Positions 5,035-27,180 of a stretch of 32,000 nt of DNA are shown here, in pieces; the first letter of the stretch is position 1; the number at the start of each line of letters is the position of its first letter. The notes beneath the pieces were generated by a model. It was not told the DNA's origin and did not search any database. It saw nothing but the letters and a program-made list of their open reading frames with translations. The DNA is from Methanocaldococcus jannaschii DSM 2661 (GTDB lineage: Archaea; AGJL01; Methanococci; Methanococcales; Methanocaldococcaceae), in NCBI RefSeq assembly GCF_000091665.1, contig NC_000909.1:1222961-1254960 (forward strand), written 5' to 3'. Both the position numbers and the translations under genes were made by a program.

Positions 5035-5050
5035 TAAAATACATATGTAA

Positions 5051-5056
5051 TTTTTT
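5051..5056 (+). terminator. Oligo-T tract downstream of the lipoprotein gene, a possible archaeal intrinsic termination signal.
   Basis: A T6 run lies 17 nt after the TAA at 5032..5034. Archaeal RNAP terminates at oligo-T stretches. Confidence 0.3.
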
Positions 5057-5094
5057 GCAAACATTTTAAAATACATAATGTAGTGATGAATACT

Positions 5095-5335
5095 GTTTCC
5101 CGTTTCCATAGCTTACCATAGCATTTAATAACTTACTATACGAATCGGTAAGCTATGGAAATGGGTTGTCCTCAGCCCATAGCTTCATCGGGAGCACCAT
5201 TCCCTTCACTATGAGTTCATCAGACTTAGGACTGAACAGATACAGCCCCAAAATCCAAACTTCGTTAATATTTAGTATCAACATTTCGTCTCGAAGGCAA
5301 AGCCTCCTCATTAACATTATGATATAACAATACAT
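5095..5335. repeat. GC-elevated hairpin-rich noncoding block. It is either a structured ncRNA candidate or a copy of the hairpin-element family seen in bioB, bioA and the ATPase gene.
   Basis: A 19-bp stem pairs 5099..5117 (CCCGTTTCCATAGCTTACC) with 5147..5165 (GGTAAGCTATGGAAATGGG), with one G-T pair and a 29-nt loop. There is a third CCATAGCTT copy at 5178. GAAGGCAAAGCCTCC at 5293..5307 resembles the AGAGGCAAAGCCTCT hairpin at 26410..26424. GC content is clearly above the flanking AT-rich spacer. Confidence 0.55.
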
Positions 5336-5433
5336 ATTACTATTTTAATAAAAAAACAATATTTATATTGTGATATTGTTTATGAGATTGTTAAGTTAAG
5401 TTTTTATTAAATATTGATAAAAAATAATAAACT

Positions 5434-5745
5434 ATGAGGCTCACGATAGAAGTTATAAAGGAGAGAATCGTAGAGAGGAAGCTTTTTAAAAGGAATAGGA
5501 ATCGATAGAGGTTAAAATCTTAGCAGGGCTTTTATACTACCTCGGATTATCATTGAGGAAAGTGGTTTATCCCCCTCCAAATTCGAAGATATAAGTCACG
5601 AATCGATTAGAATTTATTATCATAAGATTAAAGAGGTTTTAAATAGATTTCCAAGTAATAGTAAATTCGATACGGTTGTTAGTTGGATAAAAAGCTTCAT
5701 GATGTTCTATAATTGGGTGAAATCACTAACTTGACAACCTCGGTG
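5434..5745 (+). mobile_element. Decayed, internally deleted IS6/IS240-like transposase remnant (pseudogene fragments in three frames).
   Basis: Frame pieces read [54 protein letters not shown] and [54 protein letters not shown]. The first pieces match an HTH segment (LYxxGLSLRxV ... vShxxIxxwxxK). The last matches the extreme C-terminal FxxfYNxvR/K motif of DDE transposases. The catalytic core is missing. Confidence 0.5.
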
Positions 5746-5750
5746 ATAGA

Positions 5751-20549: not shown

Positions 20550-21617
20550 TTATAAACTGTGGAAATCAGCAATCATCTTTAAATCATCCTCTAAACATCT
20601 TCCCTTTGTAGTTAAATAATTCCCAACCATTAATCCGTCTAAGACCATTAAGGCATAAGATTGGAAGTCTCTTAAGTTGTATATTCTCCCACCAGCCAAT
20701 CTAATCTCTGCATAAGGCATAATTATTTTATATAACGCTATCAATTTCAAAGCATCTGAGACACTTATTGGCTTAATCTCTCCATTTTTTATTTTTTCAT
20801 AAGCTTTAGTTCCTTCAATTGGATGTAAAATATTTATTGGAACGCTATCAACCCCTAACTCTTTAAGTTCAAAAGCCATCTTTATTCTCTCCTCTACGCT
20901 CTCTCCAAGTCCAAATATTCCACCACTACAAACCTCTAAGTCAAGTTTTTTTGCCTCTTTTATAACTTTTACTTTATCTTCATAGCTATGAGTTGAACAG
21001 ATATTTTTAAAGTAGTTTTTTGATGCCTCTAAGTTATTGTGAATCCTAACGTCCAATTTTTTTAGTTCTTTTAATTTTTCTCTATCCAATAAACCCAAAG
21101 AACAGCACACTTTTAAATTTGTTTCTTCCTTTATAAGCTCTATAGCTTCAACAATTTCAATGAATTCATCATCATTAATTTTTTTGCCACTTGTTACTAT
21201 ACTGAATCTCTCTACCCATAGGGGAAACCCCCTATTGGGATACCCCACGTCCATTAAGTTGGGGCTTTCAGCCCCAATTAATGTCCCACGTTCTATGGAT
21301 GAGGAAATTTTAGAACATTCATCGATGATTTTTTTAGCATACTCTAAAATCTCCTTTTTAGATTTTAATGGATATATTGGGATGTTGCATTTACTATAAA
21401 TTGATTGAGAGCAGAAAATACAATCCTCTTTGCATTTTCCACTTTTTGCATTTATTATAGCACATAATTTAATTTTGCTATTATTTTTTATCCTATTTTT
21501 TATTTTAAAAGCCAAATATAACAAATCTATAGCACTGAAGTTATTATATAAATAGAGGGCATCATCAAAATCTATTTTGTTCTTTAGAGATTTTTTTAAA
21601 AAAGTTTCAATCTCCAT
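20550..21617 (-). CDS. bioB: Biotin synthase (radical SAM) carrying a ~30-35 codon in-frame insertion.
   Basis: It has the CKEDCIFCSQS CxxxCxxC motif, FSIVTSGKK and GLMVGNYLTTKG. The start is re-placed at ATG 21617 (MEIETFL) behind GGTGAT plus 4 nt. The segment SSSIERGTLIGAESPNLMDVGYPNRGFPLWVE sits between the AKK... helix and the conserved (R)FSIVTSG strand, where I recall BioB proteins as contiguous. Confidence 0.9.
   Translation of the reverse strand: MEIETFLKKSLKNKIDFDDALYLYNNFSAIDLLYLAFKIKNRIKNNSKIKLCAIINAKSGKCKEDCIFCSQSIYSKCNIPIYPLKSKKEILEYAKKIIDECSKISSSIERGTLIGAESPNLMDVGYPNRGFPLWVERFSIVTSGKKINDDEFIEIVEAIELIKEETNLKVCCSLGLLDREKLKELKKLDVRIHNNLEASKNYFKNICSTHSYEDKVKVIKEAKKLDLEVCSGGIFGLGESVEERIKMAFELKELGVDSVPINILHPIEGTKAYEKIKNGEIKPISVSDALKLIALYKIIMPYAEIRLAGGRIYNLRDFQSYALMVLDGLMVGNYLTTKGRCLEDDLKMIADFHSL
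21205..21300 (-). repeat. GC-rich two-hairpin element embedded in frame in bioB (modules X and Y).
   Basis: Hairpin X spans 21215..21239 (CCCATAGGGG AAA CCCCCTATTGGG). Hairpin Y spans 21252..21283 (CATTAAGTTGGGGCT TTC AGCCCCAATTAATG). ACGTGGG direct repeats flank Y. GC content is far above the surrounding coding sequence. Confidence 0.7.
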
Positions 21618-21676
21618 AAAAATCACCCTATATACAATAAATAAACATTAACTTTTAAAATTTATTGGTGATTGTT
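21618..21676. promoter_or_regulatory. Compact divergent bioB / bioW promoter region with mirror-image SD sites.
   Basis: 59 bp lie between the two start codons. GGTGAT SD motifs occur on both strands (21622..21627 and 21667..21672). TATA-like CCTATATACAATAAA and TTTTAAAATTTA lie between them, each about 25-45 nt from the opposite-side start. Confidence 0.4.
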
Positions 21677-23525: not shown

Positions 23526-24299
<774 letters not shown>

Positions 24300-24304
24300 A
24301 TAAA

Positions 24305-25690
24305 ATGAACATTGATAAAAATTTACTTGAAAAATGGGATAAAGAATATATTTGGCATCCATACACACAGATGAAAGAATATAGAGAATCAAAAAACTTG
24401 ATTATTGAGAGAGGAGAGGGCAATTATTTAATTGACATTTATGGAAATAAGTATTTGGATGCTGTTTCATCTATATGGTGTAATCTATTTGGACATAGTA
24501 GAAAGGAGATAATTGAAGCAATAAAAAATCAAGCTGATAAAATCTGCCATTCAACACTTTTAGGCTGTGGAAACGTCCCATCAATTTTATTGGCAAAAAA
24601 ATTGGTGGATATAACTCCAAAGCATTTAACAAAGGTATTTTACTCTGAAGATGGAGCAGAGGCAGTTGAAATAGCAATTAAAATGGCTTATCAATATTAT
24701 GTTTTAAGAGGAGATAAGGGAAGAACTAAATTTATTTCAGTTAAAGAAGGCTATCATGGGGACACTGTTGGAGCAATGAGTGTTGGGGGGAGTGAATTAT
24801 TCCATGGGGTTTTTAAGCCTTTATTGTTTAAAGGCTATCATGCAAATCCTCCTTACTGCTACAGATGCAAATACCACAACTTTAAAGATACTGATGAGAG
24901 AAATGAAAAAGGTTGTGAAATGGAATGTTTAAATGAGATGATTAGTTTAATTGAAAAACATGCTGAGGAAGTATTTTGTGTTATCCTTGAAGGAGGAATT
25001 ATGGGTTCTGCTGGAATGATTCCATATCCAGATGGATATATTGAAGGAGTTGCAAAGGCATGTAAGGAGAATGATGTAATCTTTATCCTCGATGAGGTAG
25101 CTACTGGATTTGGAAGAACTGGGAAGATGTTTTTCTGTGATAATGAAGAGCTAAAAAAGTTGGAGAAGCCAGATATCCTTTGTCTTGGAAAGGGATTAAC
25201 TGGAGGCTATTTGCCATTAGCGGCAACTCTAACAACTGATGAAATCTATAACCAATTCTTAGGAGAGTTTGGAGAGAGTAAGCAACTCTATCATGGTCAT
25301 ACATACACTGGAAACCAACTTCTATGCTCTGCTGCATTAGCAACATTAGAGATTTTTGAGAAGGAGAATGTGATAGAGAATATCCAACCAAAAATAAAGC
25401 TCTTCCATAAAGAATTAAGGAAATTAAAGGAACTTGAGCATGTTGGAGATGTTAGAGGAAGGGGTTTTATGGTCGGAATAGAGCTTGTAAAAGATAAAGA
25501 GACTAAAGAACCCTACCCTTACGGTTATAAAGCTGGCTACAGAGTTGCTGAAAAGCTGTTAGAAAAAGGTATCTACATGAGACCAATTGGTAATGTTATT
25601 ATCTTAGTCCCACCATTGTCAATAACTGAGAAAGAGATTATTTATCTATGCGATGCGTTGTATGAAGCTATAAAGGAAGCTGACCTGTAA
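24305..25690 (+). CDS. bioA: Adenosylmethionine-8-amino-7-oxononanoate aminotransferase (class III aminotransferase).
   Basis: It has HGHSRKEI, YHGDT, DEVATGFGRTGKMF and the LGKGLTGGYLPL PLP-Lys region. The ATG at 24305 follows a GAGGTGA SD that overlaps the bioD stop. Confidence 0.9.
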   Translation: MNIDKNLLEKWDKEYIWHPYTQMKEYRESKNLIIERGEGNYLIDIYGNKYLDAVSSIWCNLFGHSRKEIIEAIKNQADKICHSTLLGCGNVPSILLAKKLVDITPKHLTKVFYSEDGAEAVEIAIKMAYQYYVLRGDKGRTKFISVKEGYHGDTVGAMSVGGSELFHGVFKPLLFKGYHANPPYCYRCKYHNFKDTDERNEKGCEMECLNEMISLIEKHAEEVFCVILEGGIMGSAGMIPYPDGYIEGVAKACKENDVIFILDEVATGFGRTGKMFFCDNEELKKLEKPDILCLGKGLTGGYLPLAATLTTDEIYNQFLGEFGESKQLYHGHTYTGNQLLCSAALATLEIFEKENVIENIQPKIKLFHKELRKLKELEHVGDVRGRGFMVGIELVKDKETKEPYPYGYKAGYRVAEKLLEKGIYMRPIGNVIILVPPLSITEKEIIYLCDALYEAIKEADL

Positions 25691-25869
25691 TAATGGACAT
25701 TAATTAGGGCTGAAAGCCCTAACTTATAACCAATTATCAAAGCTAAATTATCTAATTAAGGAATATTTAGAAGCCCAAAGGGCTTCTATAAGTGCCTTAT
25801 TTAATTATAAAACTTTGATAATTGGTTAAATGGACGAGTTTTAATGAAACTTTTTCTAAAAGTTTCGAG
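25691..25869 (+). repeat. Composite hairpin element starting immediately after the bioA stop codon: module Y interrupted by a ~100-nt palindromic module, followed by a 9-bp-stem hairpin.
   Basis: Module Y spans 25701..25726 (TTAATTAGGGCT GAA AGCCCTAACTTA). The inner module has perfect 16-bp terminal inverted repeats, TAACCAATTATCAAAG at 25727..25742 and CTTTGATAATTGGTTA at 25813..25828. Its central hairpin TAGAAGCCC AAA GGGCTTCTA spans 25768..25788. GAAACTTTT TCT AAAAGTTTC lies at 25846..25866. Confidence 0.7.
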
Positions 25870-25923
25870 GAGATTATTTATCTATATGATTCCTTATATG
25901 ATGCTATAAAGGAAGCCGACTAG
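25870..25923 (+). other. Orphan duplicate of the last 17 codons of bioA.
   Basis: GAGATTATTTATCTATATGATTCCTTATATGATGCTATAAAGGAAGCCGACTAG (EIIYLYDSLYDAIKEAD*) compares with bioA 25634..25690 (EIIYLCDALYEAIKEADL*). By my alignment 44 of 51 nt are identical. Confidence 0.75.
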
Positions 25924-25952
25924 TAAATAATGAATAGTTATTTTCTATTATT

Positions 25953-27134
25953 TTATAACACCTTCTTTATAGCATTCCAAACTAAAAAACTCTGAGGCTT
26001 TAAAATCCCTTCTATTGGATTTAAGAATAAGATATTTCTTTTAATTAAAAACTCTCTAATTTTTTTAGGTATTTTTATATCCTCTATTTCATAATCTTCT
26101 TTAAATAATTTTAATGCATCAACAACTTTTTTATAAAGTTCCTCATCTTCTTCTTTAACATCCTCTAAGAAATATTTTAACTTTTGAGTAGCATCCTTAA
26201 GCATAAAATCTAAAATATCGTTTAAATTTTCATATCTCAACTTATCAATAACTTTTATTATTAAAACTGGTTTTCCCCCTACATAATTATAGATTAACTC
26301 TTTATCTTCATTAGTTAAGCTCATGTTATTCTCTTTAGCCAAAAAATCCATAAATTTTAAGGCAGTTTCCTTATCAAAATCATCCACTAAGATATATTCA
26401 CCTCGCATAGAGGCAAAGCCTCTATTGCTATACTCCAGAGCGGGGTTGCCAAAGGCAACCCCACTTTCTATCTGGGGGAGTATACCAATAGAGGGGGCGT
26501 AGCCCCCTCTATGGTCATCCACCAAAATATAATCAACTCTATCCTCCAACATTGCTTCATTATAAACTCTCTCTATGAATAAGCTATCTGAACTTAGGCA
26601 GAAAACGTGGCATAGGTGTTTATGCTTGGTTAGAGATACAAAGTAATTAAATAGCTCATAGATTAAGAATCCATTAATTTTCATGTCTCCAATCTTTTGA
26701 AGTTCATCAATAATAATTATTGGTTGCTTTCCTTCTCTTTTAATGTCCATTAAAACATTGGTTATATATCTAAAAACATTTTTAGTTGTTTTCTTTTTAA
26801 AAATCTCGTTTAGAGTATTTTTTGGTATGGGAATGCCATACAATGAAGGTAAGTCATTGATAATTGCCTTAATTACTTCTATAGGGCTTTTATCTCCTTC
26901 ATATTCCTCAAACAAAACTTCAATGAAATCATCGTATTTAGAGATAAAAATCTCCCTCAAATCAAAATAAAACACAATGTATTTATTTTTATCTAATCTA
27001 TTGTTAATAATCTCATTTATTAAGGCAGTTTTTCCACTATTTATGGAGCCATAGATGAAATAAATCAAATTTGGTTCTCCTTCTATAATAGATAAGATTT
27101 TATGAATTTCTTTCTCTCTATTGAAGAATTTCAT
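25953..27134 (-). CDS. Archaeal ATPase family protein (PF01637-like AAA/STAND-type NTPase) carrying a 45-codon in-frame insertion.
   Basis: [10 protein letters not shown]...[16 protein letters not shown] is Walker A and [10 protein letters not shown] is Walker B. The start is re-placed at ATG 27134 behind GGTGAT plus 4 nt. The inserted segment is [45 protein letters not shown]. Confidence 0.8.
26403..26513 (-). repeat. GC-rich three-hairpin element embedded in frame in the ATPase gene.
   Basis: The hairpins span 26405..26428 (GCATAGAGGC AAA GCCTCTATTGC), 26430..26483 (ATACTCC...GGGGTTGCC AAA GGCAACCCC...GGGGGAGTAT) and 26485..26514 (CCAATAGAGGGGGC GTA GCCCCCTCTATGG). Imperfect 24-bp direct repeats flank it at 26379..26402 and 26514..26537. 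Confidence 0.75.
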
Positions 27135-27180
27135 AAAAATCACCAAAATTCCCATTATAAAATGAGAATATATAGTAAAT

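What the first reader, a model, noticed from the sequence alone, without database searches (positions are those of the whole stretch)
25634..25923. Composite hairpin element abuts the bioA stop codon and is followed by a diverged duplicate of the bioA C-terminal coding segment
A ~180-nt hairpin-rich element starts immediately after bioA ends with CTG TAA TAA. A second copy of the last 17 bioA codons follows at 25870..25923 (EIIYLYDSLYDAIKEAD* versus EIIYLCDALYEAIKEADL*, 44 of 51 nt identical). Read in the bioA frame, the element begins W-T-L-I-R-A-E-S-P-N-L. This is the same peptide the related module encodes inside bioB (G-T-L-I-G-A-E-S-P-N-L). The picture fits an insertion into the 3' end of bioA accompanied by a ~55-bp duplication of the target, which preserved an intact C-terminus and stop upstream of the element. 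Alternatively the element may carry a replacement gene end. Either way the 'target duplication' is much longer than in the ATPase (24 bp) or bioB (~20 bp) copies, which argues against a fixed-length transposase staggered cut.
Basis: seen in the sequence. Interest (0 to 1): 0.75.

Follow-up and report, generated by a model that had tools for sequence, protein, structure and literature searches.

The report
Duplicated bioA gene end flanking palindromic repeats
In Methanocaldococcus jannaschii, a nest of small hairpin-forming repeats sits just after the biotin gene bioA, between the working gene end and a decaying second copy of it; this is a real and fairly old insertion scar, but it is made of a kind of repeat that is already known.

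Summary
The window is M. jannaschii DSM 2661. The last 19 codons of bioA, its stop codon and 8 nt of 3' flank occur twice: 25631-25695 and 25867-25932. The core is 48/57 identical; the alignment scores 74 against a maximum of 28 in 1000 shuffles.

Exactly between the two copies lie 171 nt of three hairpins (fold z = -9):
- Module A, which also occurs in-frame inside bioB.
- Module B, a 102-nt MITE-like element nested inside A.
- Hairpin C.

The upstream copy is the functional gene end. The downstream copy is an untranslated relic (Cys->Tyr, Leu->stop).

Of 16 related loci, only one other has a second tail: metagenome contig L097. It has the same hairpin C/tail junction, but its relic is decayed, belongs to a different tail lineage, and is followed by a pAgo gene instead of the ATPase gene. 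The architecture is therefore old or recurrent, and it marks the edge of a swappable gene island.

The elements match the kind of palindromic repeats with coding potential published for this genome (Suyama et al. 2005). The long duplication appears not to have been described.

The mechanism is unresolved. I favour a single insertion-plus-duplication event at a long staggered break or a template switch. Recombination that displaced the original gene end is the main rival.

The parts
24305..25690 (+). bioA (adenosylmethionine-8-amino-7-oxononanoate aminotransferase, MJ1300). The annotated 464-aa form starts at GTG 24296.
   Evidence: ORF list. The 464-aa translation is identical to AAB99307.1 of M. 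jannaschii DSM 2661. Pfam PF00202.
25631..25695 (+). Direct repeat 1 (T1): the last 19 codons of bioA, stop TAA, then TAATG. This is the functional gene end.
25696..25726 (+). Module A, left part and hairpin (GACATTAATTAGGGCTGAAAGCCCTAACTTA). It is the same module that lies in-frame in bioB.
25727..25828 (+). Module B, a 102-nt palindromic MITE-like element. It has 16-nt perfect terminal inverted repeats (TAACCAATTATCAAAG) and is nested inside module A at ...ACTTA|...|AATGG. The bioB copy of A is uninterrupted at this point.
   Evidence: (I1, I2). It is present at the same site but inverted in L097.
25829..25837 (+). Module A, right end (AATGGACGA). It continues the A consensus ...AACTTAATGGACG seen in bioB.
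   Evidence: Direct comparison.
25838..25866 (+). Module C. The hairpin GAAACTTTTTCTAAAAGTTTC occupies 25846-25866 and contains a T5 run. C directly abuts repeat 2.
   Evidence: The junction AAAAGTTTC|GA(G/A)GAGATTA is conserved in L097.
25867..25932 (+). Direct repeat 2 (T2): an untranslated relic of the bioA end. It carries TGC->TAT (Cys->Tyr), TTG->TAG (Leu->stop) and a 1-nt insertion after the stop.
   Evidence: No ORF covers it.
25933..25952 (.). 20-nt AT-rich spacer between T2 and the stop codon of the convergent ATPase gene.
25953..27155 (-). PF01637/MJ1010-like ATPase (MJ1301), the variable island gene downstream of bioA. It carries its own in-frame 114-nt nest of three GC-rich palindromic modules (26400-26513), flanked by 21-nt direct repeats at 26379-26399 and 26514-26534 (17/21 identical; DYILVDD / EYILVDD).
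   Evidence: The insertion is absent from the L001 orthologue.
21216..21329 (-). In-frame 38-codon insertion in bioB. It holds the second copy of module A (21255-21281) plus a GC-rich palindromic module.
   Evidence: It is shared with L001.

Best explanation
What it is. The 171 nt between 25696 and 25866 are a nest of small, non-coding, hairpin-forming repeats. They are of the kind already described for M. jannaschii as palindromic elements with coding potential. Three pieces are recognisable:
- Module A is a ~28-nt palindrome bracketed by GGAC.
- Module B is a 102-nt MITE-like element that later inserted into A. It has 16-nt terminal inverted repeats and only a 2-3-nt duplication.
- Hairpin C is all that is left of the original insert once A and B are set aside.

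How it arose (inferred). The first insertion happened in an ancestor whose bioA was followed by ...TAATAATGAATAG... and the ATPase gene. It was accompanied in the same event by duplication of 65 nt of target: 19 codons, the stop codon and 8 nt of flank. I think this came from repair of a long staggered break, or from a microhomology-guided template switch, rather than from a transposase's fixed stagger. Short matches at both joints fit this (ATG|GA on the left, GAG|GAG on the right).

Consequences. The left copy contains the stop codon, so BioA stayed intact. The right copy became an untranslated relic.

Later history (inferred). The arrangement predates the split between M. jannaschii and the species of L097. 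In L097 the relic seems to have served as the left homology arm when the downstream island was exchanged (ATPase versus pAgo), and it was overwritten by the donor's tail up to the edge of homology.

Shown: the repeat, the nested anatomy, the shared junction, the different tail lineages and the variable island. Inferred: the single-event origin, the break or template-switch mechanism, and the island-swap step.
For: 1. The repeats abut the hairpin block on both sides with no spare bases. The right edge of repeat 1 coincides with the left edge of module A as defined by its bioB copy. If a 65-nt tandem duplication had come first, about 85 non-essential positions would then have been open to insertion. 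That makes this placement unlikely under a two-step history.
2. T2 carries the post-stop TAAATAATG, which is found only downstream of T1-type tails. Element-free relatives have TAAAATTTT, TAATTTAAA, TAATTAAAT and the like. So in M. jannaschii T2 derives from the same local sequence as T1.
3. A second, independent case lies in the same window: a 114-nt nest of palindromic modules inside the ATPase gene, flanked by a 21-nt duplication and absent from the L001 orthologue. In L003 a 34-nt imperfect repeat (71%) brackets similar modules. The flank lengths of 21, 34 and 65 nt argue against a fixed stagger.
4. Module B shows what ordinary insertion looks like here: perfect 16-nt terminal inverted repeats and a TA/TTA-sized duplication. 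The long repeat therefore needs another cause.
5. The junction AAAAGTTTC|GA(G/A)GAGATTA and the nested position of B are shared with L097. Only these two of 16 loci have a second tail.
6. L097's relic begins exactly at that junction and is colinear with the tail-spacer-pAgo arrangement of JH146 and FS406-22. It is of M10/lauensis type (z about 10), while L097's bioA body is 98-100% identical to L001.
7. The space between bioA and the Fer4 gene holds the ATPase, pAgo, Toprim plus a 689-aa gene, a radical-SAM-like gene, or nothing, depending on the genome.
Against: 1. No empty-site/filled-site pair exists for the bioA event itself, so a single-event origin is an inference from geometry.
2. T1 and T2 differ at 9 of 57 positions. 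T2 is closer to other lineages' tails than to T1: 6 differences from 28A and FS406-22 against 9 from T1 over the first 54 nt. That is also what a foreign, displaced gene end would look like.
3. In L097 the two tails belong to clearly different lineages. This fits 'cassette brings its own gene end' at least as naturally as my overwrite step.
4. Other in-frame palindromic insertions in the ATPase family (EAKLRATKTEGFRLI in MJ1010 and relatives) and the bioB insertion show no long flanking repeat. Long duplications are therefore not a general signature of these elements.
5. The microhomologies at the joints are only 3-5 nt in AT-rich DNA.
6. L001 and L091, which I would read as deletion derivatives, diverge exactly in the loop of palindrome A. 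Four independent short-read assemblies also stop there, so those two states may be assembly artefacts.
Confidence: 0.45

Rival explanations
1. Displaced gene end from recombination with foreign DNA. Palindromic elements already lay just after the bioA stop, as they do in 28A, 10A and M10. Then one of two things happened. Incoming DNA from a relative carrying '3' part of bioA - island - Fer4' joined illegitimately next to hairpin C and homologously in Fer4 (homology-facilitated illegitimate recombination). Or a small block 'tail + A + B + C' entered by a single crossover in the tail (Campbell-type), so that the element in effect carries a replacement gene end. On this reading T1 and T2 were never identical.
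For: - The site is an island boundary with at least five different contents.
- The tail is a recombination hot spot: 91.7% identity in the last 60 nt against 98-100% in the gene body between L097 and L001.
- In L097 the relic is of another tail lineage and is colinear with a complete tail-spacer-pAgo unit.
- M. jannaschii T2 is no closer to T1 than to other species' tails.
- Different palindromic elements abut the bioA stop in 28A, 10A and M10 without any duplication.
Against: - The identical hairpin C/tail junction in M. jannaschii and L097 would not be expected from two independent illegitimate joins.
- M. jannaschii T2 includes the post-stop TAAATAATG that is specific to T1-type haplotypes, so the donor would have to be a close, element-free sibling.
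- The ATPase-internal 21-nt duplication cannot be explained this way.
- No circular or extrachromosomal copy was found (plasmid search negative).
Confidence: 0.3
2. Two steps. A spontaneous 65-nt tandem duplication of the bioA end arose first; it was neutral because copy 1 keeps the stop codon. Palindromic modules were then inserted at the joint.
For: - Tandem duplications are common.
- The locus demonstrably accumulates nested insertions: B inside A, and a further ~45-nt insertion inside C in L097.
Against: - The insertion would have to hit the exact joint among about 85 permissive positions.
- No relative shows tails in tandem.
- No flanking microrepeat that would drive slippage is visible.
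Confidence: 0.1
3. Remnant of a site-specific integrative element. An integrase-encoding element targeted the bioA 3' end as others target tRNA genes. The two tails are attL and attR, and the element has decayed to 171 nt.
For: The architecture (a gene 3' end duplicated as direct repeats around inserted DNA, with the gene kept intact) is exactly that of att-site duplications.
Against: - The neighbourhood holds no integrase or other recombinase gene; the genes present are the ATPase (PF01637) and Fer4 proteins.
- The content between the repeats is fully accounted for by small palindromic repeats.
- No third tail copy lies beyond the island.
- Integrase core sites are normally much more alike than 84%.
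Confidence: 0.05

Closest known systems
[quoted passage not shown] Cited in PMC2229807 and PMC2996958; the paper itself is not held, so details are from my memory of the abstract.
   Same: Same genome. Short hairpin-forming multicopy repeats, mostly intergenic, with a few inserted in-frame in genes without breaking them (here bioB and the ATPase MJ1301).
   Different: I could not compare with the published consensus sequences. As far as I know, that description does not report long flanking duplications of host sequence, nesting, or a duplicated gene end.
Rickettsia palindromic elements (RPE; Ogata et al. 2000, 2002, summarised in PMC10969869)
   Same: Palindromic repeats that insert in-frame into housekeeping genes and are tolerated as extra peptide loops. 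Their mobilising enzyme is unknown.
   Different: The bioA copy lies after the stop codon and is not translated. To my knowledge, a 65-nt duplication that regenerates a gene end is not a described RPE feature. The host here is an archaeon.
Prokaryotic MITEs (for example Correia/NEMIS, ERIC, Sulfolobus SM elements; review PMC10969869, PMC2229807)
   Same: Module B fits: about 100 nt, perfect 16-nt terminal inverted repeats, no ORF, and a 2-3-nt TA/TTA-like duplication.
   Different: MITE target duplications are short and of fixed length for a given transposase. The 65-nt and 21-nt repeats here are not. No partner insertion sequence was identified.
Gene-end duplication by integrative elements (tRNA/tmRNA-targeting genomic islands and archaeal integrated elements, whose attP carries a replacement 3' end)
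   Same: An intact gene end sits next to the gene, a displaced partial copy lies on the far side of the inserted DNA, and the site is a hot spot for variable islands.
   Different: No integrase. The insert is only 171 nt of repeats. The variable island lies outside the repeats, not between them.
Tandem duplication with templated or filler insertion at the joint (microhomology-mediated break-induced replication / fork stalling and template switching, or theta-mediated end joining in eukaryotes)
   Same: A duplication of variable length flanks a short inserted segment copied from elsewhere, with microhomology at the joints.
   Different: As far as I know, this has not been demonstrated in methanogens. 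The assignment rests on geometry only.

Membership tests
MJRE palindromic repeats of M. jannaschii | Palindromic sequence able to form a stable hairpin | tested here: met
   Fold z = -8.96, three hairpins; inverted repeats I1, I2 and I5.
MJRE palindromic repeats of M. jannaschii | Multicopy within the genome | tested here: inconclusive
   Module A has 2 copies in 32 kb, with 0 expected by chance. GC-rich modules occur in bioB and the ATPase gene and next to bioA in L003. B and C are single-copy in the window. The rest of the genome was not available. Four assemblies break inside A, as expected of a repeat or a palindrome.
MJRE palindromic repeats of M. jannaschii | Sequence similarity to the published MJRE1, MJRE2 or MJRE3 consensus | not testable with these tools
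   The paper is not held. Rfam has no such family and found nothing in the window.
MJRE palindromic repeats of M. jannaschii | Some copies inserted in-frame in coding genes without disrupting them | tested here: met
   bioB has a 38-residue insert and the ATPase a 45-residue insert. Both ORFs are intact, and orthologues lack the inserts.
MITE | Terminal inverted repeats, small size, no transposase ORF | tested here: met
   Module B has 16-nt perfect terminal inverted repeats, is 102 nt long and has no ORF.
MITE | Short target-site duplication of fixed length | tested here: inconclusive
   B has a TA/TTA-sized repeat, judged by comparison with the uninterrupted A in bioB; the reading is off by one base. 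The composite as a whole has 65-nt repeats, which does not meet this feature.
MITE | Related autonomous insertion sequence with matching ends | not tested
   None was seen in the window. The whole genome was not available.
Integrative element with att duplication of a gene 3' end | Integrase or recombinase gene between or beside the repeats | tested here: not met
   The only genes nearby are the ATPase (PF01637) and Fer4 proteins. The 171 nt between the repeats hold no ORF.
Integrative element with att duplication of a gene 3' end | The direct repeats flank the mobile island | tested here: not met
   The variable island (ATPase or pAgo) lies to the right of T2. There is no third tail copy.
Known structured RNA families (Rfam 15) | Match at or above the gathering score | tested here: not met
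   0 matches in the whole window.

The most novel reading that the evidence does not exclude
The relic tail is more than a scar. Palindromic repeats of this genus may insert through a break-repair or template-switch route that duplicates tens of bases of target. The resulting pseudo gene end would then act as a decoy homology arm. Defence-type islands downstream (pAgo, ATPase, Toprim) could be swapped by recombination in the decoy rather than in the essential bioA end, shielding the biosynthetic gene from island turnover.
Probability: 0.15. Interest if true: 0.65.

Novelty: new variant of a known kind. Interest (0 to 1): 0.42.

Why it matters
How the palindromic repeats of M. jannaschii move has, as far as I know, stayed unknown since they were described in 2005. 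This locus shows several features side by side:
- an ordinary MITE-like nested insertion with a 2-3-nt duplication;
- insertions bracketed by 21 to 65 nt of duplicated host DNA;
- in-place inversion of a palindrome between lineages;
- a gene that survived because the duplication regenerated its end.

The locus also marks the border of a hot spot where an Argonaute gene, an ATPase gene and other cassettes replace one another. That makes it a concrete place to test how island exchange and small repeats interact in a polyploid archaeon that now has genetic tools.

There is also a practical point. Short-read assemblies break in the loop of module A, so metagenomic 'empty sites' at such palindromes need caution.

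Tried and rejected
- Rfam scan of the whole window: nothing.
- Viral-contig scan for the module A palindrome: 23 hits, all self-complementary matches in unrelated viral contigs that I did not inspect further; uninformative.
- Plasmid collection searched with the 179-nt block: no match.
- Automatic scan for hairpin composites with flanking direct repeats across 19 loci. It found only 11 composites and failed to merge the bioA nest. The ATPase case came top (score 30, against a control 99th percentile of 27). Too underpowered to generalise.
- Reading L001 as an empty site: rejected. It keeps half of palindrome A. Its 19-nt orphan piece does not align significantly to hairpin C or to the M. jannaschii spacer (score 22 against a shuffle 95th percentile of 23). 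Its breakpoint coincides with assembly break points.
- Hairpin C as an inverted templated copy of bioA 25553-25568 (14/16 match, I4): about 0.7 such matches are expected by chance in 700 nt of AT-rich sequence by my own estimate, so I dropped it.
- The 11-nt perfect inverted repeat between T2 (25901-25911) and the ATPase 3' end (25965-75) as a sign of shared origin: the whole ATPase family ends in WNAIK, so the match to BioA's DAIK codons is most simply coincidence.
- Dating the duplication from the 84% identity: rejected, because the tail recombines between lineages.
- A recent transfer of the L097 pAgo from a JH146/FS406-22-like donor: rejected. It is only 87% identical to both, while they are 95% identical to each other.
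Full report
**Source and setting.** The window is Methanocaldococcus jannaschii DSM 2661. The 464-aa ORF at 24296-25690 is identical to AAB99307.1 (bioA, MJ1300), and the 393-aa product of 25956-27134 (-) is identical to an M. jannaschii ATP-binding protein. The bio genes run bioB (20550-21626, -), bioW, bioF, bioD, bioA (+). bioA converges on a PF01637/MJ1010-like ATPase gene (25953-27155, -), which is followed by Fer4 genes.

- The repeat finder gives 25634-25690 and 25870-25926 as a 57-nt direct repeat at 84% identity.
- A gapped local alignment extends it through the stop codon to 25695/25932. It scores 74, against a maximum of 28 in 1000 shuffles.
- Compared with relatives' tails, the repeat begins one codon earlier (GAG GAG ATT). 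The two copies are therefore 25631-25695 and 25867-25932.
- The downstream copy (T2) has Cys->Tyr and Leu->TAG changes and a 1-nt insertion after the stop. It lies in no ORF.

**Anatomy of the block between the copies.** The 171 nt at 25696-25866 fold into three separate hairpins with z = -8.96. They are not one element.
- *Module A.* GACATTAATTAGGGCTGAAAGCCCTAACTTA...AATGGACG recurs uninterrupted on the minus strand at 21255-21281. There it is read in-frame inside bioB as GTLIGAESPNLMD.
- *Module B.* In the bioA copy, A is split after ...ACTTA by 102 nt (25727-25828). This insert has 16-nt perfect terminal inverted repeats and an inner hairpin. It is an ordinary MITE-like nested insertion with only a TA/TTA-sized duplication.
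- *Hairpin C.* Once A and B are set aside, the original material between the repeats is about 35 nt. It contains the hairpin GAAACTTTTTCTAAAAGTTTC, which abuts T2 directly.
- The left repeat ends where A begins, as A is defined by its bioB copy.

**Relatives.** I compared 16 loci from Methanocaldococcus genomes and vent metagenomes.
- The interval between bioA and the Fer4 gene is a variable island:

| Content downstream of bioA | Genomes or contigs |
|---|---|
| nothing (2-40 nt) | L094, L098-L100 |
| palindromic elements only | 28A |
| the ATPase | M. jannaschii, L001 |
| a pAgo (Piwi) gene | FS406-22, JH146, L097 |
| Toprim plus a 689-aa gene | 10A |
| a radical-SAM-like gene (my reading of the sequence) | L093, L096 |

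- Different palindromic elements start right at the bioA stop in 28A, 10A and L003. In 10A and L003 they alter the last residues of BioA.
- Only M. jannaschii and L097 have a statistically supported second tail within 1 kb.

**L097 is the key comparison.**
- Its bioA body is 98-100% identical to L001.
- After the stop it has TAATAATG, module A, module B at the same nested site, A's right end, hairpin C (with one more ~45-nt insertion), and then the same junction AAAAGTTTC|GAAGAGATTA leading into a decayed tail.
- That relic matches M10/lauensis/L098-type tails (score 62-64 against a shuffle maximum of 40-44; z about 10) but not L097's own functional tail (z = 2.1).
- The relic continues colinearly into the spacer and pAgo gene, as in JH146 and FS406-22.
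- Module B is inverted relative to M. jannaschii (85% identity in reverse complement against 72% in the same orientation). The loop of A is flipped as well, GAAA against TTTT.
- The architecture is therefore older than the split between M. jannaschii and L097, or it is reproducible. What lies to the right of the junction has been exchanged.

**Why the 84% identity cannot date the event.**
- bioA is 86-90% identical between these species along its whole length.
- The last 60 nt differ by 8% between two contigs whose gene bodies are 98-100% identical.
- Tails fall into Asp-Ser, Asp-Ala and Asn-Ala types that do not follow the gene tree.
- T1 of M. jannaschii is Asp-Ala type and T2 is Asp-Ser type. 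T2 is nearest to the functional tail of L097.
- T2 also carries the post-stop TAAATAATG that is otherwise seen only after T1-type tails. In M. jannaschii, then, both copies derive from the same local sequence.

**Best explanation (confidence 0.45).**
1. An ancestor with tail-TAATAATG-AATAG...-ATPase suffered one event that inserted the primordial hairpin and duplicated 65 nt of target.
2. Later, A and B nested in.
3. In the L097 lineage, island exchange used the relic as its left homology arm and overwrote it up to the edge of homology.

The long repeat cannot come from a fixed transposase stagger. A second nest of three GC-rich palindromic modules inside the ATPase gene is flanked by a 21-nt repeat (17/21 identical) and is absent from the L001 orthologue. 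L003 shows a 34-nt imperfect repeat around similar modules. I therefore favour fill-in of a long staggered break or a microhomology-guided template switch. This step is inferred, not shown.

**Evidence against generality.**
- The bioB insertion replaces FDGI with 38 residues and has no real flanking repeat.
- Other in-frame inserts in the ATPase family have none either.

**Rivals.**
- Recombination with foreign DNA that displaced the resident gene end, or a small block that carries its own gene end (0.3). This fits the island border and the foreign relic in L097. It fits poorly with the identical junction in two lineages and with the ATPase-internal case.
- Tandem duplication first, insertion second (0.1). 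This needs a hit on the exact joint.
- A decayed integrase-borne element (0.05). There is no recombinase, and the island lies outside the repeats.

**Caveat on L001 and L091/L092.** These contigs keep only half of palindrome A and lack T2. They diverge from the M. jannaschii/L097 sequence exactly in the loop of A. Four independent short-read assemblies with an identical BioA end at or just before that loop. They may be real deletions at a hairpin or mis-joins. I do not rest any conclusion on them.

**Comparison with what is known.**
- Palindromic repeats with coding potential are published for this very genome (Suyama et al. 2005, cited in PMC2229807 and PMC2996958). I could not read that paper.
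- They parallel the Rickettsia palindromic elements (PMC10969869).
- Module B meets the MITE definition.
- I found no description of the following in the papers searched:
  - the 65-nt duplication that regenerates a gene end;
  - its conservation with a swapped island;
  - the nesting and in-place inversion of the modules.
- I rate it a new variant of a known kind, of moderate interest.

Noticed in passing
window 25953-27155 versus L087, L088, L097, L089, L002, L098: The slot between bioA and the Fer4 gene is a swappable island. It holds an MJ1010-like ATPase in M. jannaschii, a pAgo (Piwi) gene in FS406-22, JH146 and L097, Toprim plus a 689-aa gene in 10A, and nothing in 28A and L098-L100.
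   Followed up: partly
L097 (minus strand) versus window 25696-25828: Palindromic module B is inverted in place between lineages (85% identity in reverse complement against 72% in the same orientation). The loop of module A is also flipped (GAAA against TTTT). This suggests hairpin- or cruciform-mediated inversion.
   Followed up: partly
window 25901-25911 and 25965-25975; L001 7364-7460: An 11-nt perfect inverted repeat joins the T2 codons for DAIK to the ATPase codons for NAIK. In L001 both arms carry GCG instead of GCT, which is a compensatory-looking change. The ATPase family ends in WNAIK everywhere, so this may be coincidence. It could also be a shared 3'-end hairpin of the convergent genes.
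   Followed up: partly
L004 7360-7400; L089 4366-4506: In 16A and 10A the bioA tail ATAAAAGAAG pairs with CTTCTTTTAT just after the stop, forming a 10-bp hairpin that encloses the stop codon. In 10A a palindromic element sits in the loop, the stop is lost, and BioA gains 7 residues (IIGLSQR).
   Followed up: no
L082-L085 contig ends: Four independent short-read assemblies with a BioA identical to the window end 20-27 nt after the stop, at or just before the loop of palindrome A. Palindromes of this kind break assemblies and can create false 'empty sites'.
   Followed up: yes
window 21216-21329 (-); P0141, P0143, P0148: The bioB insertion is old and evolves as protein. A 73%-identical BioB (P0141) keeps a diverged version (TLIGSESSNFKKIKCFNMRSPLQ). 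M. lauensis-type BioB has a different, shorter insert at the same loop.
   Followed up: partly
ATPase family proteins P0262, P0298, P0299 (MJ1010), P0314, P0328, P0325: Other paralogues carry 15-16-residue in-frame inserts (EAKLRATKTEGFRLI; VLETFGFQNLCRFAPK) at other positions, with no visible flanking duplication.
   Followed up: no
window 5040-5750: A long non-coding stretch after the 1048-aa ORF holds a 19-nt, 95% inverted repeat (5099-5117 / 5147-5165) and relatively GC-rich segments. It could be an RNA gene or a mobile-element remnant. Rfam found nothing.
   Followed up: no
window 23568-23604: An 18-nt, 94% palindrome (AATGATAATTGTAATTAT / ATAATTACGATTATCATT) lies between bioF and the likely true start of bioD. 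It may be an operator-like site.
   Followed up: no
L003 3453-3594: A 34-nt imperfect direct repeat (71%) brackets palindromic modules between bioA and a downstream ATPase gene in the M10 MAG. This is another possible long flanking duplication.
   Followed up: partly
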